A stretch of DNA of 63,323 bases, the filler included, from Craspedostauros australis (lineage: Eukaryota): assembly GCA_030167865.1 (NCBI GenBank). It is 14 parts of 14 records of this genome, joined end to end, with 100 filler letters (N's around TTAATTAATTAA, not from the genome) between each part and the next. Parts side by side here need not be neighbours in the genome. Positions count along the whole stretch, not along the records: positions 52,032 to 63,323 come from JALAGF010002301.1; 13 more parts are not named here. One strand, 5' to 3'. Each line of letters starts with the position of its first letter. Position 1 is the first letter of the stretch. A model generated the notes under the pieces. The model saw only the letters and a list, made by a program, of their open reading frames with translations, was not told the DNA's origin and searched no databases. The position numbers and the translations under genes were made by a program. Shown piece after piece: positions 5,366 through 63,323 of the stretch.

Positions 5366-7260
5366 AGCTGCCAAGGATGAAGGCATCCTTTGAAACCCCT
5401 TCGCAGGAACTATCGCTTGCACATGAGTCCGGGGTGATGGTGATGATGTTGCTCCCGAGAGTGCAACCAAGAGTTCCTTGGCGGCAGGCCCCGCCCACAG
5501 CACCGCATCTCGTGGATAGGCTTGCGGCGTTCGCAGTGAGAAGGATGCCATCGCCTTCGAGAGCAGTGAGGATGGCTGCGATTGCTTGGGGGTCATTCTT
5601 GATGCAATGGAATCGCACTTGCACCTGTCCCTGCGACGTCCGGCTGCCTTGGTCATCATTGCATCCGAAGATGATTTTCACGAACCTGTCCTTGTTCGTT
5701 GGGAGAGACTCGTTGTCGTTGACGAATTGTGCGCATGTGCCCACATCATCATCGCAGAGGACGACTGGTCTGGAGGTGAAGCCCGCAGCAACCTCCCCAG
5801 CCTCATTCAAGCAAAGGGTCTGCAGGGTGGTCTTGTTGATGGTCGGGGGGCTTGTTGGGACAGAAGTCAGCAGATTGGACGGCTGCTCTGTCGGAATCGT
5901 CCTTGGGGTATCGCTTGCCAGCGGAGTAGGGGCGAAAGTCGGGCAATCTTTTGGGCGTTGATCTTTGTTGATGCAGAATTGATCGACCCTTTTCACTGGT
6001 TGGGTCGCCATCGACGTCTTTGGGGCAGGCGACGGCAGCATCGTAGATAATGANNNNNNNNNNNNNNNNNNNNNNNNNNTTTGTCATGCATTCGTAGCAC
6101 GCGCCGCCGCTGTCACAGCCATATTCTGGCACAATGATGTCAGTCGTCGCTGAGTCACCAAATCCCAATCCTGCGCAAGCGTAGGCTGCGGCGCAGGCAT
6201 TGTCGCTGATGATCAAGCTGCCCTGAATCTTCCCAGCTGACGGTGACGGTGTGCATGTGCAGTCGTAGTAAAAGCTCGCATGTGCTCCGGTGCATGCAAA
6301 CTCACCAAGGCATGCATTGAACCCAATTCTGACGTGGCTCTGGGAACGGCTGGGCCTGTACTGTTCAACATGGTAGCCATCGCCCGCACAGGCGTAGGGT
6401 CCAACGCAGGCGCCACTTTGTATGATGACGTCTCTGTAGGAATAATCGCCAACGAGGGTGCAGGAAAGATAATCAGTGCAGGCCAGTTGACCAATGAAGG
6501 TGACGCCGTACGTTGGGTGAGGACCATAGCAATTGGAAACATAAAGAGAGTTCATGCCGGCGCATGCCCCTTTGCTGGTACAGGATGAATCCAGGACCAA
6601 TGTGTTTCGTCCCATCCTGTCGCAAGATCCAGACCCAATGCAGGCAGTGGTGGCAATGGTCATGAAACTGTAACTATCGGCGCTGGTATAGTGATACTCT
6701 TCTGCACAGCATGGAGCCCCGGCGTTCTGGCACACGTAGTAGATGTCATCACCACCGAGAGCTGCGAACAGAGTGGTGCCGGCGGCGGACAACAGTGTCA
6801 GCTCCTCAGCTAGCAAGGGGCTGGACGCATATCGGTTGAATAGCTTGTACGCACCCTCCTCGGTCAAGAGGCCAGCGCATGCAAAGTAATTCTGCAATCC
6901 TGGTGTGCTTCGAACAGCAGTGACGGCCTCGCGGCACGATGTCTTGGATGGATTGCAGATGATGGTCTTCGGCTCGGATACCTCTGGCGGAAAGCACGGC
7001 GCAACATCTGGCTTGCAGGCCACGGAGATGCTGGAATCAAATGCAAACGAGGTGGTCGTTGGTGCAGATGTAGGCCCCGATGTCGGCATGGAAGTTGGAT
7101 CTCGCATCGGCATGCTGGTTGCTCTGCCTGTTGGCTGGTCGGTCGGTGATGAGGTAGGCCTCAAGGTTGGATTGCTGGTCGCCGAGGCAACTGGCCGCCC
7201 AGTTGACCTTGAAGTTGGTGCCCCAGTTGGTGGCAAGGTTGGTGTAGAAGTCGGTGTTGT
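5366..7260 (-). CDS. Cys-rich repeat protein with Pro/Thr-rich linkers; partial at both ends, N gap 6054-6079, apparent 1-nt frameshift near 5990
   Basis: Repeats of I/V-x3-[AS]C-x-G-x2-[AS]C and PTS.PT linkers. Colinear with the paralog at 35030-36169 only if the frame switches at GAAAAGGGTC. Confidence 0.75.
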
Positions 7261-7901
7261 NNNNNNNNNNNNNNNNNNNNNNNNNNNNNNNNNNNNNNNN
7301 NNNNTTAATTAATTAANNNNNNNNNNNNNNNNNNNNNNNNNNNNNNNNNNNNNNNNNNNNATTGTTTTGAAGTATCTCCAACGCATCCGCACTATGCATA
7401 TTCAGGACGAAGACCAATAATGCATGGAAGATGCAGTGCATAGAATATCAAAAGACACCCTGGCAAATGGGGCACGCCAGCAAGTTGGAAGCATATGAAG
7501 GAACATCCGAAGCAGGTAGGCAAGTATATCAAGAATTGGAGGCTGTACAACCGTAACGAGCAGGATTGCGCAAAAGGAGCAAGATCCAGATCGAAACGTG
7601 GATGGGATACACGACTCATAACGATCCATTGAGTCGATACGCTTAACGGGACTAAGATCGTGACTCGGGATAGGGGCGCGCCAGCCTCGCCAGTTATGAA
7701 ATTATGAGCCACGCAAACACCTCCAATGTTCGTGGAGACGCGCCAACAAAAGGCTTCGTCTCTGTGACGAAAAAGGCGAAGCGCCACCCCCACAACAACT
7801 CACAAGCATCAGCTCAACCGATCACTCTTGTTCGGATCATTGGATTCAACAACACAACCATCAAACACACAATTCCAACCGATCAGCAACTGAAGCGCAT
7901 C

Positions 7902-20570: not shown

Positions 20571-23500
20571 CTAACAGCGGACCGTGTCGCGTCGGCATTG
20601 ATCTTGCTCGCATGGATTCACTATCTGACCAGTACTGATGAATTGCGCGACTTGCCTTTGCATCCGTGAATCCATCTTGAGGCAAAGATGTACGTAGTTG
20701 CTCGTCCGCGCTTCGTCGTCGATGGGAAGAGAATCGTACTGCGTCTCATACAGCATTTCGGTCAGTGTCACGTGAGGTCCATCGTAGGTTTTGTTCGCAG
20801 GCTTGCCTTCAGGAATACCGAACAACTTGCGTGGGTTGTTGGGGAGCGTTCTCGCATCAAATCCTCTCGCCAGAGCCTCGGCTGCTATGGTTGGCACTTC
20901 GACATCTCCGAGTCCTGCTTGCATTAGAACCCTCGGAAACGCTTCGGTTTGCGGTCGTGCCAATGTGCCTGCACCCTCGACCGAGTCCCAGGCCATCTGG
21001 ACAAGACCAAGCAGCAAACGAACATGGCGATTGTTGTAGCTGTTCAGCAACATCAAGGTGTCGTAGTCAGCGAAGTCCAGCGATCTCGTCATGATCAAGG
21101 CAAATGGGGTTCCAGGCACACCGAGTACGCTGCGATCAATGAGCTTGGTGGGACCAGAGAGCGCAGTATATCCTGTACCCGAGTGGGAGTGGAGGTTTGC
21201 AAAGAGAGAACAAGATGGTGTTTGAACAATCCAAGCAATGCATCTGTTAGTACTCGTAGGTGCTCGTATGTCGTAGTGGTATGAAGGGTTGCACATGCTC
21301 GTACTAGCATGCAAGCAGTCGTGATGGAGATGCTAGCAATCGTGATGGCAATGGCGACAGTAATGACGATAGCAATAGTGACTTTGACTCGGCGCGGTAG
21401 TTGCGGCAAGTGCATCCAGGTATCCATGCCAACAGCCAACTGCCAACTGCAAACAGCGATATGCCTGAATGCTGCATGCTGATCAAGGCACGCACCCACC
21501 AGTGAAGATTATACAACAAGCACTTTGATCTCTCTGTTGCACGTACCGGCCCCAAGGATCCCACCCTGCGAGATCCCGTAAAAGACGTAGCTCGGCTCCC
21601 TGCCTTCGAAGGTTGGAATCATGTTGCCGTCAAACTTCATCTCGTCGATGGATAGCAGACCATTTCGCATGAAGTGCTGAAGGGCAAACTTGTTGGCATA
21701 TCCCTGGATGAGATTGTCTCGGACCGCTTGGAACACTCTGGGCTTTCCAATGAGCGTCTTGATGACAATCGGCAAGTCAAAGCTCGACATGCCTCTCCAA
21801 TCCATCGCCGTCACGACGTATCCGTTTTCATTCGCCATGCTGTCAGTACATTCAAGTGAGGCGAGGAGCATGAACAGAGAAGAGCAGCGAGAGTGATCCA
21901 GACAAGTAAGTCTTCGTACGTTGCAGGTGTGCTCAATACATACGAATTGCAGCCGTGCCAACCCAGCAAACAACAATCAGCAAACAAGACGTAGCACCAG
22001 CTGACACCACGCTCAAATACTCGGACGAGACATCATCGCAGAGCGCATCACCGAGCACCGAACAACTTACCTCACCAAGAAGTCGTTCGTGGCCTCAGCG
22101 CGGTTGTAGAAGAGTCCGTGGCCGAATTCCATGATTGCCCTCAGGGGCGTTCCTTCGGATGGCCTCAGCGCCGCCTCTCTCACCGAGCATGGCACGACTG
22201 TGATGAACTTGGCTTTCCCAACCTTTCGAGATGACCACGAGCGATCGACGATGTCCCTCTTGCTAAGCAGATGAGCTGATCTGCTGTGAGGATGCTCAAG
22301 GAACCATGGTACGTTGAGCTCCCCATGGATCGTGCGGGCCGCGACAGTTCCAGCATTTGGCGTGCTGCAAACGCTCGGATTGTCAACGACCTTCACCACC
22401 TTCACGTTGTCTGCCCACTCCCATTTGTAGCTCCCGATCTCTTTCATGGTTTGATCTCTCACAGCCCGGACCATGCCCAGCTGCGATTCTGCGCTGATAG
22501 TTGTAAAGTCAAATGTCAATTGGATAACCTTCGGGTCTGTTTTCATGTCAACCCACGGTGCCGCTGCTTCGAGGGCTGGCCTCAATTTGCTGCGAAAGCG
22601 CTTGCCCGCGAGCCCGCTGCTGTCTGCGAGCAGTTCTTTCATGCCAGATGTTTGCGGCAGGCGCTTGTTGTCCTTGTCGGTGGCATGCACAACGAACAGA
22701 GCATAGTGTGCTGCGTGCTTGAGAGGTGCTGCCGGAAACACCTGCACGATAGGTCGGTCAGGATCGAGGTAATCCATGTCAGCAATGTGCGGTACAAGCT
22801 GCTGCGATTCCACGTCGAGAAGCAACGTGACCGATTCCTCCGTGATGGATTTCTCGATGTCATCAGCATTGGGGAACTCCAGCGTGGCGTTGCTCTCCTT
22901 CCTGGCCACGTGCGCTTCCTTCATTCCGTCCATGTAAAACATCAACGGCCCCATCGTCGAAAAGCCGTCGAGCTCGTTCAGGAAATCGACGTGCATCTTC
23001 CACCCTCCGCGCAAAGGAGGCAGGACATTTTTGCGCAAGTTGACCCTCCAGCCTGTTTCTGATTCTGAATCAGTCTTCATGTGATGAAACGATGGGAATG
23101 GAAGCATGCATTCCGTTTCATCCATGGCATCGCAGTGGTCCAATGTTGGTTGAATTCGGAAAAAGCCCCCCAAGTGAATCGGCCATGGCCCAAAGTGCGA
23201 GACGGCAGAGAGCAGACTCCAGATGTACACCAAAATGGCGACGAGCATGCCGTACAGCAAACACTTCGCCACCCGAGCTCTCCGTTCCAACCATTCCTCA
23301 GGGACGGTGCTCACTAGTCCCTCCATGGCCGTGAGTGCGGACGGACGCGTCGTTTGGCTCAGCGAGAGCAGTGACGGCGATGTGATGGATGAGACATCGG
23401 AGCAGTTGATTGGGAAAGTTTGGAATGTCGGACGCCAGTTGCGATAGTGATGCGGGTACTTCCATTTGAGGTATCTCACAAACAGCGTCATGCCGCCGAC

Positions 23501-24301
23501 GACACATCGCGACGCCACCGCAAGGTATCCAATCCAAATCGCCACTCGAATTCGAACAACCATCGAATGCCATTCTTCGACGATGGTGTCGTCGATATCG
23601 GTGAATAGAGCGCCGATGACGCCCTTCATTATGGAAGGATAGACGATGCCAAGTAATATGATATCGAGCAGTGACGCCAGCGATGAAAATATCCGGCCTT
23701 GGCCAGAGCAGCAGCAAAAGCAACTCCTGAGCTGGCGTTCTCCGTCTTCCTCCATGCGCCTGTTGGTCGCCGTCTTCGTCGTGGAGTCCTGATTGGCACG
23801 CACCAGGTTGCGAGCATTGGCGATGACGACGACCAGGTGCAAGAGGAAGATGAATCCGGCCCACCACCTCCCACCAGTCCAATCAAACACCACCGTGATG
23901 ATGTTGATGGTCAGTGCCGGGATGACCAAGAGGATCGATGTGACGACGGAGAGCAACCAAGGTTCCTCCCATCGGAAGAAGGAATCCTGCAACATCATGT
24001 CCTCCACGAGCCGAGGGATGCGGATCTGCCCTTGCGAGATGTTCGTCTCGTCTTCGTCGTCCAACGAATTGTCGTCGCGGAATCGTGACGACCCCCGTCG
24101 GTCATGTTGCGGGTAGTCGGTCAGTTCCACCTCGTTGGGGGCATCATCGTCCAGGCCCGGCTCGCCGCTTTCGCCATCGATGGAGCCAAGTTCGTCGTCG
24201 AAGGATTCGGCGTAATCTTCCTCCTCTTCTTCGATGTCGTCGTCGTCATCGTCGTCGCTGCTTGTGTTGGCAGCAACTTGGGAGTAGAATCCCAGCGGCA
24301 T
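20571..24301 (-). CDS. Multi-TM membrane-anchored alpha/beta-hydrolase, paralog 1; exons 24301-22071, 21839-21547, 21172-20571
   Basis: Two GT-AG introns give an in-frame protein colinear with 53949-57053. Motifs GHGLF, MDWRGM, GISQG, GLGD, NYVH. Confidence 0.88.
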
Positions 24302-34929: not shown

Positions 34930-35029
34930 NNNNNNNNNNNNNNNNNNNNNNNNNNNNNNNNNNNNNNNNNNNNTTAATTAATTAANNNNNNNNNNNNNNN
35001 NNNNNNNNNNNNNNNNNNNNNNNNNNNNN

Positions 35030-36169
35030 TGCTGCCAAGGATCCTCGGGATGCACTTCAGTCACCGGTTCCGCCTCCAACTCTCCTCCATTCATGACCAT
35101 CGCCATTACAGCATGCACCGGCGACAGCGCATGCAAAGATATGGGCCCCAATCCCCTCATCCTCGATTCCTCCTGCACTGGAGACAGTGCATGCGAGTTG
35201 ATGAATGAGAACGAGATCAACCCGTCCATCACGGGAGTCACCTTCGTTGGTGAGATGGCATGCACCACCCCTCGATCTTGTGAGGGAGTGGGACGCCGTG
35301 CTCATGGCGATGTCACCATCCAGACTGGAGCATGCATTGGGTCAGAGGCATGCAACTCCGCTGGCCGTCGTGTGGAGCAATCAGCACCATCTTTTCGCTT
35401 CCGCAGCCACATCGATATTGGTTCGAACGCGTGCGTCGGCAGCAATGCCTGCAAGGATGCCCATTCCGCTGTCAATCATGGGACTGGTGGCAAGTATGCA
35501 GGCAGCCTGACCATTGGTGCTGGCGGTTGCGCCGCCGATGGGTCATGCGAGAAAATGGGCTTCAGTGACAGGATGAGAACCGACCTCGTCGTCCCTCCTG
35601 GTGGATGCGGCAGTGTCAAAGGCTGCAGGGGATGCATGACGAAGACGGAGTGCAGCTCCGACGAAGTTTACATCATCAGCGATGTCGATGGGGCTTGTCC
35701 AAAGGGAGGCAATGACAGCAACATGAATCCCACGGGTGACAAGGTAGAGGAGTACTGCATTGCCCAAGACACATTGCCCACAGACTGTCCAACTTTCTCT
35801 CCAACTCCTTTCCCAACACCTGCCACGTCACCTCCCACATCAGCCCCCACATCAGCCCCCACTGCTCCAACTTCAGCACCGACATCAGCCCCCACATCGG
35901 CTCCTACATCGGCTCCAACATCAGCTCCTACATCGGCTCCAACATCAGCTCCAACATCAGCTCCCACATCGGCTCCTACATCGACTCCGACGTCAGCCCC
36001 CACATCGGCTCCAACATCAGCTCCAACATCAGCTCCTACGTCGGCTCCCACATCAGCTCCTACATCGGCTCCAACATCAGCTCCCACATCAGCTCCCACA
36101 TCGGCTCCTACATCGACTCCGACGTCAGCCCCCACATCGGCTCCAACATCAGCTCCGACGTCAGCTCCC
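35030..36169 (+). CDS. Cys-rich repeat protein with a mucin-like (PTSA)n stalk, partial at both ends
   Basis: AC.G..AC repeats, homologous to 5366-7260, followed by a long PTSA tract. Confidence 0.85.
35833..36169 (+). repeat. Coding 12-bp minisatellite encoding PTSA
   Basis: CCNACATCRGCT-like units running into the linker. Confidence 0.93.
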
Positions 36170-36269
36170 NNNNNNNNNNNNNNNNNNNNNNNNNNNNNNN
36201 NNNNNNNNNNNNNTTAATTAATTAANNNNNNNNNNNNNNNNNNNNNNNNNNNNNNNNNNNNNNNNNNNN

Positions 36270-51931: not shown

Positions 51932-52211
51932 NNNNNNNNNNNNNNNNNNNNNNNNNNNNNNNNNNNNNNNNNNNNTTAATTAATTAANNNNNNNNNNNNN
52001 NNNNNNNNNNNNNNNNNNNNNNNNNNNNNNNATTGGAGTACATTATGGATCTGTTTATTGAGTCTGTTGTGAGCGACGAAAATACTAGCACTAGCATGGT
52101 TTCGAAGCAAGAACTAAACTAGAAATACAATTTATTGTAGACATCGATCAAAGTTCCCTGATTGGATAATCCCAAATCTCCGCGTGGAAGTGACACTTTT
52201 GCCGGGACTCT

Positions 52212-52292
52212 CTGAGTGGAAACGATTTCCATTTCTGCCGCAGAAGTGGAAATCATTTCCACTCAGCGAGGGGGTGATTTCTCGCCACCCCC
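52212..52292. repeat. 55-bp near-perfect palindrome followed by a GC-rich hairpin
   Basis: 27-bp arms at 52212-52238 and 52240-52266 with 2 mismatches; GGGGGTG-N9-CACCCCC at 52270-52292. Confidence 0.9.
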
Positions 52293-52733
52293 GAAAAAAT
52301 GTCTCTATCAGGTTATGACTCCCTCATGGGACTGTTCGTGACTGGGTGAGTGGAATGCAGAACTTCTCTAGTGGCTGTGTTTCTCCACCTAACAACTTAT
52401 CATCACGGATATTCGTGACTGAAAAGTGAATGTCATCTGAGTCGGTGCAAAATGCGGACGCCTAACAGTCAATGTTTGTGATGAATACATGTCATTGTTG
52501 ACATTGCAAACAAACAATAGCAATTCAATGAAACTGACAGACAAATGACGGTTGATCTGAACCCAACAAACAGCCAAACATGGATATCGCACGAGAGTAC
52601 TCGTCCGTAGCCTTGTTCCCAAAAGGGCCTAGAGTATTTGGGACAGCATCTTTCAGGCTCTTGCCTCGATCTCCACACGCTTGCTCACAACAAGGAGAAT
52701 CATATAATCTGAGAGTACTCCAGGTCTCAACTC

Positions 52734-52768
<35 letters not shown>

Positions 52769-53948
52769 TGTTCTCTGTACTGTTGTGAGCACAACATGCA
52801 CGGCTGAGTACTCTACGAACTACTCAACTCTGTCATGATGTGGGTGGCGTGCATTGTGCCATACTACTACAAGAGGGTATTGATGCAGACATCTTGCGTG
52901 TATCCATCATCTTTGTTGCCTTGATTCTCTGTTTCCCTTGGTTGGTTGGTTCTTCTTCTCGTGCTTGGTGGCGTGCTTGTGTTGCCTTTTCTTCTTGTCG
53001 GCGCACGTCTGCAATCGTACCATAGATTTTGTTGCACCAGTGGTCGCACATGCACAAGCAGAGTATTCCAGCCCGGAGAGTGGAGGGTACAGTCTGCTCG
53101 TCATGATGGTGTTGCGTACGATACTCAACTGCAGAGTCGGAAGATCACCATCTTCAGTGTGCGTCCACGTTCCTGCAGATTCACTGTCAGAGAACTGCCG
53201 TTCTTGGCGAAGAGGAAAGTCAACAGGATCCTCTCTTGGCCCGACACCAGCAAACGCATGCGGCGTAGATTGGAGCGAAACTGGCCGCTTGGGCGTAAAC
53301 TTCTGCTCACGAAGCCGGCAGAGGGCACAGTTGATGGGAATTGCGAAGTTTCTCATGTGACGTCGATCATTTTCCCTTTCGGGTTCGTCTTCCAACGCCA
53401 CGAACACGGTGCAAAAGTGCACATTTCTCTGTAGTTCCCGAGCTCCACGATTGGGCCTTGGACAAGAAACCAAAGAACGAACCAGCACAACAGTGTTGGC
53501 TTTGGCGCGAAACCTTGCCGCATCGCAAACAACGCAGCACGTGATGCACACAGCAACAACAAAAGAACATTGGAGTGCTCTCTGCTCATAATTCTTCATT
53601 GCAACTGGACAGATAGCCGACGGCGGCGATGTGCAAGCCTACTCGCCCGCGTCCATGAAACCTTGCGCTGCTATTGCGTGTTACACATCGTATAATAATG
53701 TACAAGCCATTGCATAATATTGCATACTAGAATACATATTCTTTCCTCAACCCTTCATTACATGCAAAGTCACAAGCACATGCATCACAACGAGCACCAG
53801 CATACGCACCAACGATAAGAGGAAGCCCAAGAAAGCAGTCGCTCTCTCTCCAGAGAAACCGCAACGACGCTCTCCTCGTGCTACTCACAGCCACTCACAG
53901 CCATTGGCAGCCATTCACAGCCACCCACAAGCGCGCGCATTGACAATC

Positions 53949-56900
53949 ATGAGCGCGGCTGGAGAATCGAGCAGCGAGACAATGGCGGTTGTCGGCGGCA
54001 AGGACGAGAACGACGCGCTGCTGCCGCGCCATGATGCATCGCCGCCATCTGCCCGTCGGTGGCATGGCGGCCGCAATGCCCACAAGTACGGAAGCAGCTG
54101 CAGCGACAGCGACAGCAGCAGTCTGGACAAGCACGCGCCATTGACGATGCAGGATGACGACGCGCGCAGAACGTGGTGCGAAGTGATGGGCATGCTCAAT
54201 ACATGGACCACGATTTGCCTCGCGGTGCCCGCCATCCTGCTGTGCGCTGCGCATGCCACCGACTTGACGCGGCAGATCTGGCCGTGCCTCGTCTTCAGCC
54301 TGCATGCCAGCCTGCTGCTGATCGCCACGGGACATCCCCACCAAGAGAAGAGAAGTAACGCGGAGGTCTGCGTCATCATCCTTGTCTGCGTCTTCGACGT
54401 GGCCTTGCTGCATCGTGGCTACCTTCCCGCGGTGCGCATTCTCGTCCATGATTTCTACGGCGACGTCGATGGAACGGTGGTGGCGGAATGGTGGTGGCAG
54501 TGGGCGTGCTGCATCCTCATCTTGCGGATGCTGCAGCTGGTCTACGCGCTGCGAACCTTGGTGCTTGCGAGCATCATGCTCTGCATGCTCTTCAATTCCT
54601 GGTGCGTCTCCTTCGCCGGGCTTGCGAAAGCGGCGCCTATCCAGTGGTTGGAATCCAAGGCCGCGGCGGTGCGCATGAGGATGAGCGCTATGCGCAAGAA
54701 CAGGCAGGACGCGCTGCAACTCGCGTGGATGGCAGAGCTGGCCATCGCCGCGGTGCTCGTCACCATCTCCTTCACCGTCTGCGTGCAGCGCTTCGCCATG
54801 GCATCACGGTACGAGCGGCCGGGGTACTACGACCACTGCGATCCGCTCGACGACACCGAATGCGCGTTCCCCTACCCCTCATTCCATCACATGCAGCGCG
54901 ACGATTCCACGGCAACGGGCTGGCGCATCAACCTCGAGCAGTCGGCCTTGCCGGTGCTGCGGGATGGTTACCACGTGTCGGTGGATTTCCTCAACGAACA
55001 GTTCGACGGCTTCAGCACGATGTCCCCGATCCTGTTCTACATGGACGGTCTCATGGAGGCAGACGAGCATCTGCGCGGAACCCAAACACACGGCCTTCAG
55101 GGCGTCGACCAAATACCTCTCTCCACCACGGATAAGTCCTGGACGTTGCTGCTCAACGTTGACACTTCGACGCTGGTGCCGCACGCGGCGGAGATAGACT
55201 ACTCCGATCCCCACCACCCATCCGTCACCCTCACGCCGGCTCAACCGCTCGATCATTCCAGCCACTACGCCGTCGTCCTGTACAATGCGACGGACAAATA
55301 TGGCGACAGGCTGCCGCCCACGAGAGGCATGTTGCAGCTCCTCCGGGATGGCATCGATCTCAGCCATGATCAAGGCAACCGTTTGCACAGATACCAAACC
55401 GACGTCATCCCCGTTCTCGAGCAGGCAGCGCCGTGGATCGACCATGCGGACGATCCCATGGGCCTGCAGCTGTTGTTTGACTTCGTCACCGTCAGCGAAA
55501 CGGCGCAGCTTGGACCGCTGATGAAGATCCGAGACGACGCCTTGCGCACGATCGAAGACGAATGGAACGGCGATTGGTCGGGCCACGTACGAACGGTCAA
55601 GATGGATAATTTCAATTGCGCGGAGAAATTCAGGGACGCGAGCGGCACACTGACGACCCGGTTGATGGCCAGGGTCGTCCACGGTGAGATCGATGTGCCG
55701 TGGTATCTGGAAGCTCAAGGCCAAGGGCAAAGGCATGCCATCCTTCGCGAACCGTTGGAGCAGGACGCCACGACGATCGGGAAGGCAAAATTCACCATGC
55801 AGATTCCATGCACCGTGCGGGACGAGATCTTGAAGGCACAGGCAAGCAATTCCGCAACCTCCGATCATTTCGCCATCCCGAAGGCGATCATCGATTACGG
55901 CCACGGGCTGTTCTTCAATCGCTGGGAAGCCACCATCCACGCTGTCCAGGAGCAAGCCTACCGTGAGAAGTACGTTGTGATGGCCATGGAGTGGCGTGGT
56001 ATGTCCTCATTCGATCTCGGGGTCGTCATGAAGGCCATCCTATCAAAGCCTCAAATATTTCAGGCCATGCGCGACAACCTCATGCAGGGTTTCGTGGCCA
56101 AGCTGTGCCTTCAGCATTTCGTCCACAGCGGCCAGCTATCGCAAACCGATTTCCTCACCTTCCGCGACAAGACGCAGCGAACATCGGGCACGCAGCGTCT
56201 CAACCAAGCAGCAGCAGCAGCAGCAGCAACGGTACCGGCGACGCTACCAGCGACGCTACCAGCGACGCTACCAGCACAAGCACCAGCCAAAAAGCCCACG
56301 AACGTGTACTACGGTAATTCACAAGGTTCGATTCTGGGCGCGGGATACACTTCGTGGATGGCGCCCCTCGAGCTCATCGAGAGAGTCATCTTGGGAGTCC
56401 CAGGCATATCCCTCGGCTTCACCATGAACCATTCGCCAGCCTTCGGAACGTTCGAAATGCTGCTGACCTGCACGTTCCTTCACAGGCGGCACATCCGCAT
56501 CATCGTTTCCATCATGCAATCGTCGTGGGATGCGGTGGAAGGTGCGGGATGGTTGGCATCGCAAGGCGCCGCATTGAGCGGCCAGCACCGACCGCCCGTG
56601 CTGCTGCAGGCAGGACTGGGCGATCCCGTCATCCCCAACTTCGCGTCCGAATCGCTGGCGCGTGCCTTCAACGCAACCGTCGTGCCGCACAATCCCAAGA
56701 AGAACATCGTGGGGGTCCCCGTGGCTTCCAAGTCCACCCTGCAGTCGCCATCTCTGATATCGCAACCAGGCAGCACGGTCGTTCTGACGGAAGTCCTGTA
56801 CACGCACGAATACGCGGCGTTGCGCGACGACTCGCGACCACTGCCCGAGGACAGCCACATCAGGCGAGTGAATCACGTGCATTTTTGCCTGCGACAGAAC

Positions 56901-57053
56901 TGCAACGCGATGGATCAACTTGCCACCTTTGTGAACAGTGGCGTCATCGTGGACCCCTGCGCCAACGGTGGCTGCGTCGTGGACCATGCCGAGTGCTACA
57001 TGTTCTGGCAGAAGGACAACACGAGGTCGAGCAACTGGACCTGTCCGGCATAG
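53949..57053 (+). CDS. Multi-TM membrane-anchored alpha/beta-hydrolase, paralog 2 (intronless, ~1034 aa)
   Basis: About 5 TM helices, HCDPLDDTECAFPYPS, DGFST, GHGLF, MEWRGM, GNSQG, GLGD, NHVH. Confidence 0.9.
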   Translation: MSAAGESSSETMAVVGGKDENDALLPRHDASPPSARRWHGGRNAHKYGSSCSDSDSSSLDKHAPLTMQDDDARRTWCEVMGMLNTWTTICLAVPAILLCAAHATDLTRQIWPCLVFSLHASLLLIATGHPHQEKRSNAEVCVIILVCVFDVALLHRGYLPAVRILVHDFYGDVDGTVVAEWWWQWACCILILRMLQLVYALRTLVLASIMLCMLFNSWCVSFAGLAKAAPIQWLESKAAAVRMRMSAMRKNRQDALQLAWMAELAIAAVLVTISFTVCVQRFAMASRYERPGYYDHCDPLDDTECAFPYPSFHHMQRDDSTATGWRINLEQSALPVLRDGYHVSVDFLNEQFDGFSTMSPILFYMDGLMEADEHLRGTQTHGLQGVDQIPLSTTDKSWTLLLNVDTSTLVPHAAEIDYSDPHHPSVTLTPAQPLDHSSHYAVVLYNATDKYGDRLPPTRGMLQLLRDGIDLSHDQGNRLHRYQTDVIPVLEQAAPWIDHADDPMGLQLLFDFVTVSETAQLGPLMKIRDDALRTIEDEWNGDWSGHVRTVKMDNFNCAEKFRDASGTLTTRLMARVVHGEIDVPWYLEAQGQGQRHAILREPLEQDATTIGKAKFTMQIPCTVRDEILKAQASNSATSDHFAIPKAIIDYGHGLFFNRWEATIHAVQEQAYREKYVVMAMEWRGMSSFDLGVVMKAILSKPQIFQAMRDNLMQGFVAKLCLQHFVHSGQLSQTDFLTFRDKTQRTSGTQRLNQAAAAAAATVPATLPATLPATLPAQAPAKKPTNVYYGNSQGSILGAGYTSWMAPLELIERVILGVPGISLGFTMNHSPAFGTFEMLLTCTFLHRRHIRIIVSIMQSSWDAVEGAGWLASQGAALSGQHRPPVLLQAGLGDPVIPNFASESLARAFNATVVPHNPKKNIVGVPVASKSTLQSPSLISQPGSTVVLTEVLYTHEYAALRDDSRPLPEDSHIRRVNHVHFCLRQNCNAMDQLATFVNSGVIVDPCANGGCVVDHAECYMFWQKDNTRSSNWTCPA

Positions 57054-58317
57054 AGCATGATATGAATACCATTGGATGTTCGAGCAGCGCTATCAATCAC
57101 CAAGAGTAGAGAGGTACCTACCAACTCGTACAGTAGAACCCAAGGACGCAAAATAGAATGGATTTCGTTATGACCAACATGCGGCGCAGTCTGGTGAAGT
57201 ACAATCTTCGTATGGTGTGAGTAGTCTATTGTCGGGCAGCGCGATATGCCGAAAGAATGGATTTGCCCAGCGTCGGAAGGATGCACCCCTGAAGCGCATG
57301 AACCAGAGTCACACATCTGTGCGGCAATGGACAACTCAGGGGTGCGCGGATGATGCAATTGGAGCTGGTACGATCGAGCAGAGCTGAGCGGATCCACAGT
57401 TGCCCGTGATGGACGAAGCAGAATGCTCTCGAGAGGTCACCCGGACGGATTTGGAGACAAACATCATCATCGAGCGAACAACTTGACACATCTAATCATT
57501 CATCGTGACACGCAACCACCCGTGAGACTACTACCATCATCATCATCAGCAGCATCAAGAGCGCGGAGCAACACAGGAGGAGAGGATCAGTTGACACCAC
57601 AAGGGAGGGGAAGACGTGGTGGATGCAAAACCGCACATTCCTTTTCTGGCATCAAGGAAGTGAACCGACAACCACTCACAATTTCCCCTTTGGTCATCTC
57701 AGTTGCGCACGCAAAACGAGTCATGGATACCTACAGGCTCCGCCCAAACCGCCAATCCAGGAACTGCATGTGCAACGATCGGAAGAGAGACAAAGTCGAC
57801 ATTTGTGTTTGTTGAACAAAAGGAACAGACCAACGCGACACCACAAAAGGAAGGAAGACCAGTCGACAGGGGGCAAATCAATCTGTCGGCGGCTTCGTTG
57901 GTGTGCGACGACTTGAGTTGAGCGGCCGCGTGATTGGCGGCGTGGTGCGTTGCGTTGCGATGTGAGCGCCATCGTCGCTGTTTTCTTATCGTTGGCTGTG
58001 TTGGGAGAGTTGCGGAAAGGAGCCCGCCGCCGTTTTGGTTCGTTGGATGTGCAAAGGGAATGGGAGATTGAAATGCAAAGAGCGAAGGGGGAGAGAGGAG
58101 ACACAGATTCGTGCAAGTGTGCGTGCTGTCGCCGATGATGATGATGATGGTCGACGTCGATGATTATGATTGTGATGGTGGTGGACAGATTCCGTATCCA
58201 CTCGGCGAAGATGCAAATACAGGCATTCAACCACTATTTGTTTACTCTAAAACTGTCATATCTTGCTCTACAGAAACGGGGACGACGATGAACATCGAGA
58301 TCAAATAGGGAGATTGT

Positions 58318-60051
58318 TCACGGCACCACAGCGCACGCTTGTACACCGATGCATTCTCCATCGGGGATGGCGTCAATGTTGTTGTAACACGAGGAATTGC
58401 CACGGCAGGCTCCGTCCCCTACCATTCCGGTCTTGAGATAGCATGCTGCATATTCGTAGCACGAACCCATGCCCACGTCGGCCTTGTTCTTTAAGCAGGC
58501 GTATGGGCCTTGGCAGGAGCCCTGGCCGATGGCACCATCCTGCTGGGCGCATGCGACCATTCCAATGCAGGATTCCATGCTGATAGCACCAGCCTGCTGG
58601 ATGCATGCTCTCGTTCCAATACAGGATCCCATGCTGATGGCACCAGTGTTTCGGTCGCATGCTGCTTCTCCTCCGCAGGATCCGGCGTCGACGTTTCCCT
58701 TGTTGAGGAAGCAAGCATACTCTCCAATGCAGGACCTGTCACTGACGTTGGCCAGGTTCGTCAAGCAAGCATTCTCGCCGAGGCAAGCGCCAGTTCCGAT
58801 TGCTCCTTCGTTGAAAACGCATGCACCTTCGCCAACGCAAGAGTTTTTCTGGATGTTGCCTCGGTTGCGGAAACATGCTTCGCCTGTGGTGCAGGACTCC
58901 TCGCCAATGTCCCCTGTATTTTCCAGACACGAATTCTCCCCAATGCATGAGAATGCGGAGATATCGCCTGAGTTTCCGTAGCAAGTTGCCTCACCGTTGC
59001 AAGAATGCTCGCTGATTTTGCCAGAGTTTCCGTCGCAAGAATTCTCACCGTTGCAAGAATGCTCACCGATTTCGCCGGAGTTGCTGAAGCAAGCGTTGTA
59101 GCCGTTGCAAGAATGCTCACTGATTTTGCCGGTGTTGTATGAGCAACTGAGGTTGCCATTGCAAGCATAAGAAGGAATTGGCACCTCGATGCCGTAGCAG
59201 GCGTACAAATCGTTGCAAGCGTAGGGAGCAATCGTGATGGCCGTTGTCTCGTTGGGACTGAATTCGCAAGCGTATTTGCCATTGCAGGAGTCAGGGCACA
59301 CCGTCACGTGTCGGTCGCTGCCCCACACACACGCGGGAGCTATCTCATTGTCTGGTGCTTGACAGCAATTAGCCTCCTCGTCTGCACACTTCGCGGTGAC
59401 ATCTTCGGCCGTTCCAGTGAAGCAGGACTTGAATGCCTTGTTGGACTTGGAAGACTTCTCAGACTTGGCTCCCTTTGATGACGATTTCTCAGACTTGGTG
59501 GACTTGAGCTGGCGGTTGTGAACATCGAGGGTTTCGGTTGTTTTCTCATGACGAAGTTCTGCGATGGACTCAGGCGACACGGACTTCTCGGCATCGTGAG
59601 TGGTGCCTTGAAGACGGCCAAGATCGGTGAACTTGTGCTCAAGCTTGTTCTTGTCCTCGCTTTTGGTGTTGGTGGAAGAGGCGGCACGTCGACGACGAAA
59701 GTTGCTTCCCTTGGTGTTGGTGTTGGCGTTGCTGTCCCTCAAGTTAGGAACAATATCATCAATGTTGGGCATGGAGCTAGTGGCAGAGAGGAGCATGGTC
59801 TCCTTGTCCTCGGTGTCCTGTGCTGTGATCTTGGTGTTGTCACCGTGTGCGGAGTTGAACGCCAAGATCTTGGCCTTGCGCTCAGCTGCCAGCTTGCCGA
59901 ACTTCGCTTGAAGAGCGTCGATGTCAACATCGATGTTGAGATCGGTGGCGACCTTGGTGCGACCGCTCGTGTCGAGCACGGCATCGACGCCGTTGCAGAT
60001 GATGCTCTGTGCGATGACGAGAGCGAGGATGTCTTTCTTCATGGGTGGCAT
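58318..60051 (-). CDS. Secreted protein: signal peptide, pro-region, RQL, Lys/Ser-rich segment, 17 x 18-aa Cys repeats
   Basis: MKKDILALVIAQSIICNGVDA signal-like peptide; RQLKSTKSEKSSSKGAKSEKSSKSNKAFKS; repeats at 59232-58321. Confidence 0.92.
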   Translation of the reverse strand: MPPMKKDILALVIAQSIICNGVDAVLDTSGRTKVATDLNIDVDIDALQAKFGKLAAERKAKILAFNSAHGDNTKITAQDTEDKETMLLSATSSMPNIDDIVPNLRDSNANTNTKGSNFRRRRAASSTNTKSEDKNKLEHKFTDLGRLQGTTHDAEKSVSPESIAELRHEKTTETLDVHNRQLKSTKSEKSSSKGAKSEKSSKSNKAFKSCFTGTAEDVTAKCADEEANCCQAPDNEIAPACVWGSDRHVTVCPDSCNGKYACEFSPNETTAITIAPYACNDLYACYGIEVPIPSYACNGNLSCSYNTGKISEHSCNGYNACFSNSGEIGEHSCNGENSCDGNSGKISEHSCNGEATCYGNSGDISAFSCIGENSCLENTGDIGEESCTTGEACFRNRGNIQKNSCVGEGACVFNEGAIGTGACLGENACLTNLANVSDRSCIGEYACFLNKGNVDAGSCGGEAACDRNTGAISMGSCIGTRACIQQAGAISMESCIGMVACAQQDGAIGQGSCQGPYACLKNKADVGMGSCYEYAACYLKTGMVGDGACRGNSSCYNNIDAIPDGECIGVQACAVVP

Positions 60052-60800
60052 GGTTGCGTGTTGGTGTTGTCGGTGTTGTTGTTACTTGTTGTGTGTGCGC
60101 TTTGGCCTTGAGTCAAGTTGAGTTGAGTTGAGTTGGTCTGTTCTCGATTTTGTGGGTGATGGCAAGCAATCGCTTGAAGGGTGAAACTCTTTGGATGCTA
60201 TTTGTATCATCCCCTGCTGTTGTTTGGGTGTGTTTGGCAACAACATCTTCACCAAAATAGACAGTGGAGAGCGGGCGATCCAACAACTTCGGAAACTTTC
60301 AACTTCGCGGAGGTGGCAGCAACAGCGAAGCCACAGTTGGACGCGGGACATTGTGGCGCTAATTTCATTTCGCCTCGCCATTTTTGCTCAGCGTTCTGCG
60401 GGCAACGGAAGATTTCTTCGACCCTCACCGTCTCAGCGGACGCCACAAGATCCTGCACAAATGTGCTCCAGTGACAACGGCCGTCTGGGCGTTGAGGGAA
60501 ATATGCATATATGCCATTTATATGGAAAATACGTTGTGTCACTGTCCCACCAACAAACCCCGTTCGTGTTTGATTTCTGCTCGTCAGTCCAATGTCGAAC
60601 GCATACTGTAGTCTACGAAAAGGCAGCGCAGCTGTTATCGACACAATAAAGTGATTGTGGCATTCAATAGGATGTGGATCACTCTTGAAACTAGTAATTA
60701 ACTTGGTATGGACTAAAGCCTCCAGATTGAATAGACAGTTGTGTGAGAAAGGCAATTGTTTTGAACACCTCCTTCTGGCGTTCTCTATCTGACCTGTATG

Positions 60801-61615
60801 TGTTGGCAAGTTCCAGTCACGGAAGCCTACGATCGTGGAAGACGGTGTTGTTGATAGTCGGTATGTTTGCTATTTCATTTGTTGAGACTCCAATCCTCTT
60901 GGTGTCTCCGTTGTCTTGCCCAATGCTCTTGGCATGTTTGTCTATCTCATAGATTGGATCTCTGACTATGAGTCGGTACATGAGATACTCTCTTGCTACT
61001 ATTCGTATGCTCTCTCTCTCTCTCTTTCCTCAATGTTGCATGTCCATGCTACACGATACTCCATGTTTGATGTGTACTCTGCATTTGACACTCTGTTCAT
61101 TCACTACTGACTTCTACTCCATGAGTGCTTGCCACTTGAACTCCACCTCGTGTATCCATGATCTCGATGCCCTTCAGTCATCGAATCTTCACCTTCTGCT
61201 CCTGACATGGAGACAGATGTCGACATGGTGACATGATGACATCCTGTCTATGTCAGCTGGTGTCTTCCTTGTTCCTCCAGATGTCACATTCCATCAATGA
61301 TGCGATGGTCTGTCAGATGATATTGTCATCTGGGGTTTAGTTGGGAGGTACATCGAGCTTTGCTCGATACCATACGTTTCCATTGATGGATGGACGGACG
61401 ATGTTCCTGATTCTCTCAGAAATCGTTGATTGCAAATTTCCTTCAGAAATTCTACTCATTTTCGTGTGTTCCATTTCCACTGTAATTCTGACGAATCACA
61501 TCATACTATTGACACGAGTGTAGTTTTACCGTCTGTACATGTATAAGAGCATAGCGGGTGAACGATGCACATATACACGTACATCTCGGCATATACTCAC
61601 ATATACATCTCGATA
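60801..61615 (+). mobile_element. LTR-like family B, full and more decayed copy
   Basis: TGTTGGCAAG...CATCTCGATA, homologous end to end with the other copies. Confidence 0.85.
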
Positions 61616-62052
61616 TTGCTGGTGGGATAGGCGCGACAGGTGATGCAACATCAGGCGCAGCAGAGGGTGACACGTTCACGACAACGCTCACCAAAGTCCC
61701 ATCGCCGACACCTTGTCCTTCCGAGCGCACCCTGATGTTGGAGTCGTCAAAGGCACCTCTGTTGTTGTTGAGGATGTGTACAAACATGTGCAGCTCGCGA
61801 GTGTGTGCATGCATACTGTTCGGTACGAGGCCTCCATCCGTTGCATGCATCGGCTTCACATCAATCAATTGCATGATGGTGGTCGGCTTCCTCAATGTAG
61901 TGGATGGCTTGTCAGGCAACAGTTGCTCTGCAGTTGGCAGCAAGTTCCCTTTCGAATCGACAGGAGGAGCAGACACAGGGTGAGCGCGAGGTTTCTTACT
62001 GGGGGAGGGGTTGCCATCCTTGGAGAGGGCCTTGGTGGTAGAGAAAGGCATG
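61616..62052 (-). CDS. Hypothetical ORF start (MPFSTTKALS...) cut by the family B element
   Basis: ATG-started frame runs into the element end; no domain recognised. Confidence 0.3.
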
Positions 62053-63323
62053 ATGCAGTTGTTTCTGTGGAGTAGTGTGGTTTGCTGGTTGGATGTGACG
62101 AACTGCACTGGTGTGAGACGAAGTGAGAAAAGGAGAGCATTGAATGAAGGCCGATCATTCAGCAACAATGACAACTACTACCACTACTACTACTCTGACG
62201 AGAACAGGCATTGAGCGAAAGGGCGAGTGTGCATGGCATTGGCAAGGAAAGTTGTGAATGAAGCCAAAGTGTGGCACAATTTTATGAAATGATGGCGATG
62301 ATGTGTTTTGTGTGATGTGTTTTGTGACGAGCAGAACGTGGAATCATGTGCTGCATACTAACGTGTAATTAACGCGTACCAAACGACCGACACCTTCGGG
62401 AGGATGTCCGTGACTGATCACCTCACGGTAAATACACGAGAACATTATCGAACCTTCGGCAGAAACGAACAAATTTGCTGCTGTTGGATCAACGCGACTG
62501 CAATGCACACATAGATCACTCCATAAAAGTTAAAATGAAACCAAGTACAAGCTGAAAGGGTCCACCATATGTAAATAGACTACGAGGATTATATATGTAA
62601 TTAGTTTTAAACTCCCAGAAAAACGACTAGACTCTTCATTTCAAACAGTTGGTCGACTCGCTCAAGTGGGTCATGGATACTCCGCACAAACAGCCAATCC
62701 CGCAATTGCATGTGCAACGATCGGAAGAGAGATAAGACCCACTTGAGTGACGGGACCTGCAGTCGGTCCTGAGGGGGTGGGAAGATACGGGGCTTTCGAC
62801 CCAGACACCCACATATTCATAAACTAGAAACAAATATAAGAATCATAGTGGACGCCGATTTTGGTTTAATGTCTTAGTTTAATTTTTATCCACCTTTGTA
62901 GATTTACGGTCCTCTTGGTCGAATATGCACACTGATCCGTAATGATCGCAAGGCATTGATTAGCTTTTACGATGCAAACAACGGAATGTGCCCAGACACG
63001 TTCGGGAAAGAACTTTTTTTGACGGGTTGCGTACGGAATTTGACATTTCAGCGACGTCATTGTTTGGCCTGTCCGAACACGTTTTCGAAATAACTATCCG
63101 TTATTAGACGTTATCATTCAAATTCAAAATTTGACTCTCGTCACATGCCACAAATCTCCTCGCATTTTGCCACTAAATCGCGTTTTGCTTTTCGTGGTGG
63201 TGTGCAGTGCTTGTTGCATGTTCATGTAGTGTTTGCATCGGCACCTTCTTGCGTCCCTCCTGCTCAGTTCACTTCCATCACTAGTAGTCTTCTCCATCTA
63301 CCCATCAGTACCAATCAGCATCA

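What the first reader, a model, noticed from the sequence alone, without database searches (positions are those of the whole stretch)
58318..60051. Candidate biosilica/cell-wall protein: RXL site and pentalysine clusters fused to a Cys solenoid
Seen: a signal-like peptide, a pro-region with RRRR, then RQL directly followed by KSTKSEKSSSKGAK (5 Lys in 14 aa) and KSEKSSKSNKAFK (5 Lys in 13 aa) at about 59427-59514. Known: RXL processing sites, KxxK motifs and pentalysine clusters characterise diatom silaffins and cingulins and can target proteins to silica; those proteins are mostly disordered. Inference: cleavage exposes a silica-targeting tag on a rigid disulfide-rich rod, an architecture I do not recognise as described.
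Basis: partly seen in the sequence, partly recalled or inferred. Interest (0 to 1): 0.72.

Follow-up and report, generated by a model that had tools for sequence, protein, structure and literature searches.

The report
Lysine-tagged cysteine rod of diatom wall
This diatom gene encodes a secreted precursor that probably gets cut to expose a short lysine-rich tag, of the kind that sends proteins into the glass cell wall, on a stiff disulfide-locked rod, and it is one of a large family of such rods of different lengths related to wall proteins already seen in other diatoms.

Summary
Observation confirmed: an intact 577-aa ORF has a signal peptide, a disordered pro-region, RQL, a 27-aa tag with 9 Lys (two strict pentalysine matches), a 6-Cys cap and 18 C-x5-C units. 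The repeat is Pfam DUF7640; AlphaFold gives a confident solenoid (pLDDT 96), probably left-handed. The gene belongs to a family in this genome: of 29 distinct N-terminal segments, 27 keep RxLK and 21 a strict pentalysine cluster, while the pro-region drifts; 17 complete members have 12-36 units. One paralog is 457/457 identical to a protein labelled Craspedostauros australis. The architecture is not wholly undescribed: Skeffington et al. found the same motifs (IGxxSC, GxxACxxN) C-terminal in biosilica proteins; TpSSP16 (= silaffin-like SFLP15, strongly Si-induced) stays in EDTA/SDS-washed silica. That raises the odds of a wall role and lowers novelty. Against: DUF7640 also occurs in bacteria and mostly without the tag; RXL is not silica-specific; RRRR is not conserved; cleavage, localisation and homology to TpSSP16 itself were not shown. 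Best reading (0.55): RXL-processed, Lys-tagged, silica-embedded rod. Not found in my searches: the fold, the compact tag-on-rod form, the length-variable expansion. New variant of a known kind; interest 0.5.

The parts
58318..60051 (-). Whole gene, 577 aa plus stop, single exon; lies in the window segment 52032-63323 (= G000:C2301)
59980..60051 (-). Signal-peptide-like N-terminus, aa 1-24
   Evidence: hydropathy peak from aa 8; K5 K6 L9 A10 L11 S16 A24 at least 90% conserved in 20 aligned sequences; SignalP not run
59506..59979 (-). Pro-region, aa 25-182, predicted disordered, fast-evolving
   Evidence: pLDDT < 50 for aa 1-206; 24-29% identity to eight distant paralogs
59686..59697 (-). RRRR, aa 119-122; weakly conserved basic patch
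   Evidence: exact in 3 of 22 paralogs, R-x-x-R in 14 of 22
59611..59625 (-).
   Evidence: 95% identity, dN/dS 0.02 against eight distant paralogs; D-x-G-[RIV]-L about 30-35 aa before an RXL also in Cyclotella cryptica P0190 and in P0026, P0065, P0179
59506..59514 (-). RQL, aa 180-182: candidate RXL processing site
   Evidence: RxLK in 27 of 29 distinct paralog segments; R180, L182 at least 90% and K183 100% conserved
59425..59505 (-). Lys/Ser tag, aa 183-209: 9 Lys, strict pentalysine clusters at aa 193-205 and 196-208
   Evidence: strict cluster in 21 of 29 paralog segments, two or more KxxK in 28 of 29
59290..59424 (-). N-cap of the rod, aa 210-254, six invariant Cys and a short helix
58321..59289 (-). 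DUF7640 solenoid, aa 255-577: 18 units of consensus [IV]xxx[SA]CxGxx[AS]CxxNxGx; cap plus rod acidic (net -27, pI 4.2), 42 Cys

Best explanation
A silica-wall (soluble-silicome-type) protein made as a pre-pro-protein. Step 1 (inferred from sequence): the signal peptide (aa 1-24) takes it into the ER, where the 42 Cys of cap and rod form disulfides, probably one C-x5-C bond per 18-residue coil, giving a stiff, acidic, probably left-handed solenoid about 9 nm long (fold predicted; 0.48 nm per coil is a recalled figure). Step 2 (inferred by analogy to silaffins and Sin1): the unknown RXL protease cuts after L182 and removes the disordered pro-region, whose conserved DxGRL motif may serve that protease or sorting. 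Step 3 (inferred): the new N-terminal 27-aa Lys/Ser tag is methylated or polyaminated and phosphorylated as in silaffins and acts as a pentalysine address to the silica deposition vesicle. Step 4 (inferred): the protein is built into valve or girdle silica as a cationic anchor on a rigid acidic rod, a structural scaffold rather than an enzyme. Shown here: sequence anatomy, family conservation, non-random motif, predicted fold. Not shown: cleavage, modification, localisation.
For: Tag and RXL are conservation islands: between aa 25 and 209 the only columns at least 90% conserved in 20 sequences are D143, G145, R146, L147, R180, L182, K183, K186; against eight distant paralogs identity is 58% in RQLK+tag and 24-29% in the flanking pro-region, dN/dS 0.32 versus 0.63-0.74. 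RxLK in 27 of 29, strict cluster in 21 of 29 segments. Two proteins labelled Stauroneis constricta keep signal, basic site, Lys run, cap and rod (P0026 with RRL, P0008 with RRRA). Strict clusters occur in 29% of 92 silica-associated proteins against 1.5% of background (10.1101/2021.09.18.460806, section 14); KS.KS, SKS.K, AKS.K, KS.KA, each more than 20-fold enriched there, are all in this tag. The same paper reports IGxxSC and GxxACxxN motifs C-terminal in TpSSP16 and CcSSP23, and TpSSP16-GFP at fultoportulae, retained after EDTA/SDS; this protein has IG..SC 4 times and G..AC..N 7 times. TpSSP16 is THAPSDRAFT_8219, annotated silaffin-like SFLP15, log2 change down to -5.0 on Si withdrawal and up to +7.4 on Si addition (PMC5501833 supplement). 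DUF7640 proteins exist in T. pseudonana and C. cryptica. The genome is a silicifier (92 silicon-transporter matches). Model: pLDDT 96.1, pTM 0.89 for aa 208-577.
Against: DUF7640 is not silica-specific: it occurs in Chloroflexota bacteria, and only 6 of 152 database relatives have RXL followed by KxxK, one being a paralog from this species and two looking incidental; many of the 152 are fragments or bacterial. In this genome the repeat also sits in mucin-like and membrane-anchored proteins without a tag. 8 of 29 family segments lack a strict cluster and 2 of 29 lack RxLK. RXL is also reported in frustulins, which are not silica-embedded (PMC4557024). K..K is common in background proteomes, and 1.5% of a proteome is many more proteins than the 27 cluster-bearing silica proteins. 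The protein just misses the silaffin-like composition rule (best window 0.97 of threshold). The TpSSP16 sequence was not retrieved, so the link rests on motif text; TpSSP16 sits at fultoportulae, which pennate diatoms lack (recalled). Pentalysine targeting was shown in a centric species.
Confidence: 0.55

Rival explanations
1. A frustule-surface coat protein (frustulin- or CaFAP1-like in place): processed at RXL and secreted, then held on the finished silica from outside by the cationic tag, with the acidic, variable rod facing the medium as a protective or anti-fouling layer. It would not take part in silica formation.
For: RXL is reported in frustulins. C. australis has a Cys-rich, mucin-like coat protein CaFAP1 on the cell surface (10.1101/2023.03.06.531300). 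The repeat is used in bacterial secreted proteins and in mucin-like or membrane-anchored proteins of this genome. A large family with variable exposed positions fits a surface-interaction role.
Against: TpSSP16, with the same motifs, resists EDTA/SDS; strict pentalysine clusters are about 19-fold enriched in silica-embedded sets. Whether CaFAP1 carries this repeat could not be checked (paper not held).
Confidence: 0.25
2. A component of the raphe adhesive or biofilm matrix: the Lys tag binds substratum or acidic polysaccharide, the solenoid acts as an adhesin stalk.
For: The closest low-rmsd fold matches include adhesin heads (BpaC 7o23 Z 17.0, rmsd 3.0, 260 aligned; UspA1 3pr7 Z 12.3, rmsd 3.3), though a shared fold shows no function. 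The species is a gliding, fouling diatom.
Against: The eight adhesive-trail proteins described for C. australis are built of PTS, CAA, vWA, DUF4215 and six-Cys repeats; no RXL or lysine motif is mentioned in the main text. Its supplementary tables could not be seen.
Confidence: 0.1
3. A wall protein of one stage only (auxospore, perizonium or stress wall), or a secreted protein that is not cut at RQL, the Lys run being only a linker.
For: No clear expression evidence was obtained for this gene; 2 of 29 paralogs have lost RxLK and remain open frames.
Against: One paralog is recorded as a complete transcript in a public transcriptome (P0154); RXL and tag are conserved well above the flanks.
Confidence: 0.1

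Closest known systems
TpSSP16 (THAPSDRAFT_8219, SFLP15) and CcSSP23, Cys-motif cluster of soluble silicome proteins (Skeffington et al., 10.1101/2021.09.18.460806)
   Same: Low-complexity N-terminal part plus C-terminal IGxxSC / GxxACxxN repeats; SFLP15 was picked as Ser/Lys-rich silaffin-like; silica-associated and Si-induced.
   Different: Their N-terminal region is described as Ser/Pro/Thr-rich; here a 27-aa Lys/Ser tag joins the rod directly with no PT linker. They come from centric diatoms and TpSSP16 sits at fultoportulae. No fold was described. Sequence not retrieved, so orthology is untested.
Silaffins and cingulins (TpSil3, CfSil1p, Cin)
   Same: Signal peptide, RXL site, KxxK motifs, pentalysine cluster, Ser-rich phosphorylatable tag.
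   Different: They have one or no Cys and are random coil (PMC5525289); here 64% of the chain is a folded rod with 42 Cys, and the Ser/Lys composition rule is narrowly missed.
Silicanin-1 / SiMat7-like proteins
   Same: Signal peptide, RXL pro-domain, then a folded Cys-containing luminal domain.
   Different: Sin1 is a type I membrane protein with an NQ-rich domain; this protein has no transmembrane helix and a repeat solenoid. No sequence comparison with Sin1 was run.
Pfam DUF7640 (PF24646)
   Same: Match E 2e-45, 154 bits against a cut-off of 28.1.
   Different: Function unknown; no paper in the library names it; most members lack the RXL-Lys tag.
Left-handed beta-helices (GlmU, LpxA/LpxD, YdcK) and YadA-type adhesin heads (BpaC, UspA1)
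   Same: Low-rmsd structural matches: 7o23 Z 17.0 rmsd 3.0 over 260; 1hm0 Z 16.6 rmsd 2.9 over 190; 2f9c Z 16.4 rmsd 4.4 over 269. Handedness labels are recalled.
   Different: 7-16% identity, no Foldseek match at E <= 0.001; this rod has two Cys per coil and little regular strand in the model. Geometry only.
CaFAP1 and frustulins (surface coat proteins)
   Same: Secreted, acidic, Cys-rich diatom wall-associated proteins; frustulins carry RXL.
   Different: CaFAP1 alternates PTS and Cys domains; frustulins have about 50-aa ACR domains; this protein has no PTS region and no ACR/frustulin Pfam match.

Membership tests
Pfam DUF7640 (PF24646) | Score above the gathering cut-off | tested here: met
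   154.2 bits versus 28.1, four stretches
Pentalysine-cluster proteins | K..K..K.{1,2}K..K | tested here: met
   matches at aa 193 and 196; expression
Pentalysine-cluster proteins | N-terminal ER signal peptide | tested here: inconclusive
   hydropathy and conservation fit; SignalP not available
Silaffin-like proteins (SFLP) | A stretch of at least 100 aa with at least 18% Ser and 10% Lys | tested here: not met
   best window 103 aa with 18 Ser and 16 Lys, 0.97 of threshold; met by 8 of 22 paralogs at 100 aa; rule as quoted
Silaffins / cingulins | Almost no Cys, random coil | tested here: not met
   43 Cys; aa 208-577 fold with pLDDT 96; feature
Silaffins / cingulins | RXL site before the mature chain | tested here: met
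   RQL aa 180-182, conserved
Silaffins / cingulins | Cleavage at RXL and Lys/Ser modification in vivo | not testable with these tools
   needs proteomics
TpSSP16/CcSSP23 cluster of soluble silicome proteins | C-terminal IGxxSC and GxxACxxN motifs | tested here: met
   4 and 7 occurrences; motifs
TpSSP16/CcSSP23 cluster of soluble silicome proteins | N-terminal region rich in Ser/Pro/Thr (type f) motifs | tested here: not met
   no PT dipeptide, 2% Pro in the pro-region; such linkers do occur in other DUF7640 genes of this genome (L124, L125, L127, L132)
TpSSP16/CcSSP23 cluster of soluble silicome proteins | Sequence homology to TpSSP16 | tested here: inconclusive
   T. pseudonana DUF7640 proteins were found but none could be identified as THAPSDRAFT_8219
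TpSSP16/CcSSP23 cluster of soluble silicome proteins | Retained in EDTA/SDS-washed biosilica | not testable with these tools
   needs GFP tagging or silica proteomics
Silicanins | C-terminal transmembrane helix and cytosolic tail | tested here: not met
   top 19-aa hydropathy windows are all in the signal region
Hexapeptide left-handed beta-helix (LpxA/GlmU) | Left-handed 18-residue coil geometry | tested here: inconclusive
   rmsd about 3 to left-handed folds versus about 11 to right-handed ones; no Pfam hexapeptide match, no Foldseek match
CaFAP1-type mucins | Alternating PTS-rich and Cys-rich domains | tested here: not met
   no PTS region in this protein; feature

The most novel reading that the evidence does not exclude
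The family is a set of molecular rulers for silica: each member has the same cleavable silica address and cap but a rod of 12 to 36 coils (about 6-17 nm at a recalled 0.48 nm per coil), so that the cell lays rigid, tag-anchored spacers of chosen length into the deposition vesicle to set pore or rib spacing; diatom silica patterning would then use folded, length-tuned scaffolds and not only disordered polyelectrolytes, with DxGRL...RXL as a diatom-wide pro-peptide signal.
Probability: 0.1. Interest if true: 0.85.

Novelty: new variant of a known kind. Interest (0 to 1): 0.5.

Why it matters
Most known silica-wall proteins are disordered, and most come from centric diatoms. This gives a predicted fold for a Cys repeat already seen in biosilica proteomes but not structurally assigned in the papers I could search, and a compact natural test case (address tag directly on a rigid rod) in a pennate species for which GFP-tagged lines are published. 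The family offers built-in controls: paralogs with and without the pentalysine cluster or RXL, and rods of different length. It makes testable whether pentalysine targeting holds in pennates, what the RXL protease recognises (the conserved DxGRL motif), and whether folded rods shape silica. If the protein proves to be a surface coat, it is still a large unannotated wall-protein family, but of ordinary interest.

Tried and rejected
P0007/P0154 as an independent ortholog: rejected, it is 455-457 of 457 identical to a paralog in this genome. RRRR as a key site: weakly conserved. RQLK-tag as a genome-wide modular address: a degenerate DNA pattern gave 31 matches (21 for the reversed control); 18 of the 30 loci read belong to this family and the other 12 had no Lys run or no long frame; looser RXL-Lys forms on other genes were not surveyed. 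Expression: no RNA holder listed; run X1, whose RNA status is a guess, has a 281-nt exact contig inside the gene but also exact cover outside it, so it is not used. Homotrimer prediction: no verdict, score 0.00, neither for nor against. ESM Atlas: no usable hit. Foldseek against PDB and BFVD: nothing at E <= 0.001. Prokaryote genome scan with one protein: 36 pattern matches, none confirmed. TpSSP16 sequence not retrieved; its identifiers were not found in the 5 supplements of PMC9894196. Earlier scan notes: nothing. Papers not held and so not seen: Poulsen 2013 (pentalysine; known second-hand), Poulsen 2023 (CaFAP1), the journal versions of the Skeffington and Trailin preprints. Gene neighbourhood is uninformative: the window is a chain of separate contigs. 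A likeness of the C-x5-C ladder to beetle antifreeze proteins is recalled only, and the repeat profile shows no Thr array.

Full report
Observation. The finding is an intact single-exon ORF on the minus strand, 58318-60051, 577 aa. The window is a chain of contigs joined by N spacers; the gene lies in the last one, 52032-63323, which is G000:C2301, so only the immediate neighbours are linked. All quoted features are at the stated places: RRRR at aa 119-122, RQL at aa 180-182 (59506-59514), Lys stretches at aa 183-196 and 196-208. The tag, aa 183-209, has 9 Lys and 11 Ser/Thr, net +7. The strict pentalysine expression given by Skeffington et al. matches at aa 193 and 196, not at 183. In 100,000 shuffles a strict cluster arose in 0.07% (whole protein) or 0.65% (aa 25-209), and RXL shortly before one in 0 and 0.03%. 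After the tag come a six-Cys cap and 18 C-x5-C units, 16 spaced exactly 18 aa, matching Pfam DUF7640 at E 2e-45.

Family in this genome. The Cys part finds 89 matches in G000, the N-terminal part 40, the Pfam model 173 with 150 of 369 candidates scored. From the loci fetched, 29 distinct segments run from a DxGRL motif to the cap within 125 aa; 27 have RxLK, 21 a strict cluster, 28 at least two KxxK. Eight further rows were left out of that count: one truncated duplicate, one cut by a stop, five without DxGRL and one with a 250-aa linker. Some of the 29 may be alleles; of 22 N-termini compared only one pair was 95% identical or more, and they fall into 8 groups at 60%. Seventeen complete members have 12-36 units, acidic rods (net -13 to -53) and an even Cys count in 15 of 17. 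In an alignment of 20 full-length sequences (18 from this species, 2 from another) the only columns at least 90% conserved between aa 25 and 209 are D143, G145, R146, L147, R180, L182, K183 and K186. Against eight distant paralogs the RQLK-plus-tag region is 58% identical (dN/dS 0.32), the cap 59% (0.13), DLGRL 95% (0.02) and the pro-region 24-29% (0.63-0.74); against four close paralogs the tag is 94% identical but with few changes (dN/dS 0.50). RRRR is exact in 3 of 22, R-x-x-R in 14 of 22. Other DUF7640 genes here have different layouts: RXL/Lys region plus PT linker plus short rod (L124, L125, L127, L132), a long PTS mucin plus rod (L123), and membrane-anchored forms (L134, L135).

Organism and relatives. 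A paralog on G000:C6666 is 457/457 identical to P0154, labelled Craspedostauros australis and recorded as a complete transcript. The genome is therefore that species or one very near it, and P0007/P0154 is a paralog, not independent support. The genome holds 92 silicon-transporter matches. A full HMMER search found 365 relatives, of which the best 150 were listed. Among the 152 non-self proteins held at that point, 6 had RXL followed by KxxK; the rest, many fragmentary or bacterial (for example Thermoflexales), match through the repeat only. The full signal-pro-basic site-Lys-cap-rod layout outside this species was seen in two proteins labelled Stauroneis constricta (P0026 with RRL, P0008 with RRRA). 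DUF7640 proteins also occur in Seminavis robusta, Thalassiosira pseudonana and Cyclotella, and several keep a D-x-G-[RIV]-L motif 30-37 aa before an RXL (P0026, P0065, P0179, P0190).

Structure. AlphaFold2 on aa 208-577 with 40 sequences gave pLDDT 96.1 and pTM 0.89 for the best model (five models 60.7-96.1), with one bridge residue recurring every 18 aa. The full-length model (mean 62.4) has pLDDT below 50 for aa 1-206, so pro-region and tag are predicted disordered. Foldseek found nothing at E <= 0.001 in PDB or BFVD. In the wide VIA search, matches at rmsd about 3 are GlmU, LpxA/D, YdcK and YadA-type heads (7o23 Z 17.0, rmsd 3.0, 260 aligned; 1hm0 Z 16.6, rmsd 2.9, 190), whereas pertactin-like and tailspike helices align at rmsd about 11 (7akv Z 17.9, rmsd 11.4). 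As the first group is left-handed and the second right-handed (recalled), the model is probably a left-handed solenoid. This shows geometry, not function.

Literature. Skeffington et al. (10.1101/2021.09.18.460806; passages and sections 12-17 read, supplements closed) describe a cluster of soluble silicome proteins with Ser/Pro/Thr-rich N-termini and C-terminal Cys motifs IGxxSC and GxxACxxN; TpSSP16-GFP lies at fultoportulae and, like all but one tagged protein, keeps its pattern in EDTA/SDS-washed silica (the preprint numbers this cluster 2 in one section and 7 in another). This protein has those motifs 4 and 7 times. TpSSP16 is THAPSDRAFT_8219 (10.1101/2024.12.20.629074, passage), annotated silaffin-like SFLP15 with log2 change to -5.0 under Si withdrawal and +7.4 after Si addition (PMC5501833, passages and supplement rows). 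Strict clusters are in 29% of 92 silica proteins against 1.5% of background. RXL is also reported in frustulins (PMC4557024, passages) and in the folded, Cys-containing Sin1 (PMC5525289, passages). The eight adhesive-trail proteins of C. australis are described with other domains (10.1101/2023.03.06.531300, passages and section 17). Searches for prior description: 'DUF7640' 0 papers; IGxxSC only in the Skeffington preprint among the 20 of 28 papers listed; searches listed nothing on this fold or family by title and abstract start. Most subscription papers are outside the library. I could not retrieve TpSSP16, so the tie is by motif.

Mechanism. Most likely (0.55) a pre-pro-protein: ER import and disulfide folding of the rod; removal of aa 25-182 at RQL; modification of the exposed Lys/Ser tag; sorting to the silica deposition vesicle; embedding as a cationic anchor on a rigid acidic rod. 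Anatomy, conservation and predicted fold are shown; cleavage, modification and location are inferred by analogy. Rivals: a loosely bound frustule coat (0.25), a raphe adhesive or biofilm component (0.1), a stage-specific or uncut protein (0.1). It works like a pentalysine-addressed silica protein but is not a silaffin (43 Cys, folded; composition rule missed at 0.97), and it lacks the Pro/Thr linker of the TpSSP16 cluster.

Verdict. What I did not find described: the solenoid fold of the repeat, the compact tag-on-rod form, the conserved DxGRL pro-motif and the large length-variable expansion in a pennate. New variant of a known kind, interest 0.5; the ruler reading (probability 0.1) would deserve 0.85.

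Noticed in passing
G000, whole genome (L091, L092): Silicon transporter family PF03842 gives 92 matches, about nine of them nearly full length and many partial, on dozens of contigs: an unusually large expansion, or alleles and fragments of a split assembly.
   Followed up: no
L134:1015-2130 (-) and L135:1347-2402 (+): DUF7640-type repeats followed by a hydrophobic segment and a cytosolic tail sharing an ELRQY motif: possible membrane-anchored (SDV or plasma membrane) versions of the rod.
   Followed up: no
L123:4156-9501 (-): Very long Pro/Thr/Ser tandem repeat (over 1,200 aa, open at the start) ending in the same cap and a divergent solenoid: a mucin-like member.
   Followed up: partly
L124, L125, L127, L132: Genes with signal, RXL/Lys-rich region, long PT linker, cap and short solenoid: closer to the described TpSSP16 layout than the finding itself.
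   Followed up: partly
window 5806-7308 (-) and 34982-36214 (+): Two partial genes on other contigs of the window with divergent Cys repeats (family HMM E 7e-11 and 5e-10; Pfam DUF7640 below cut-off) next to PT/PS repeats: possible CaFAP1-like mucins.
   Followed up: partly
window 59611-59625 (-); P0190, P0179, P0065, P0026, P0233: A D-x-G-[RIV]-L motif 30-37 aa upstream of RXL recurs in secreted proteins from pennate and centric diatoms: a possible general pro-peptide signal.
   Followed up: partly
window 53949-57053 (+) and 20571-24301 (-): Two related genes of about 1,000 aa with N-terminal membrane segments and a hydrolase-like C-terminal part; the first has no Pfam match.
   Followed up: no
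window 57700-57810 and 62660-62735: A near-identical stretch of about 75 bases occurs on both sides of the gene in non-coding DNA (read), perhaps a small dispersed repeat; run X1 also has several variant contigs at 57929-58210.
   Followed up: no
window N runs, e.g. 34930-35029 and 51932-52031: The window is a concatenation of contigs joined by N spacers with a TTAATTAATTAA core, so apparent neighbours across spacers are not linked.
   Followed up: yes
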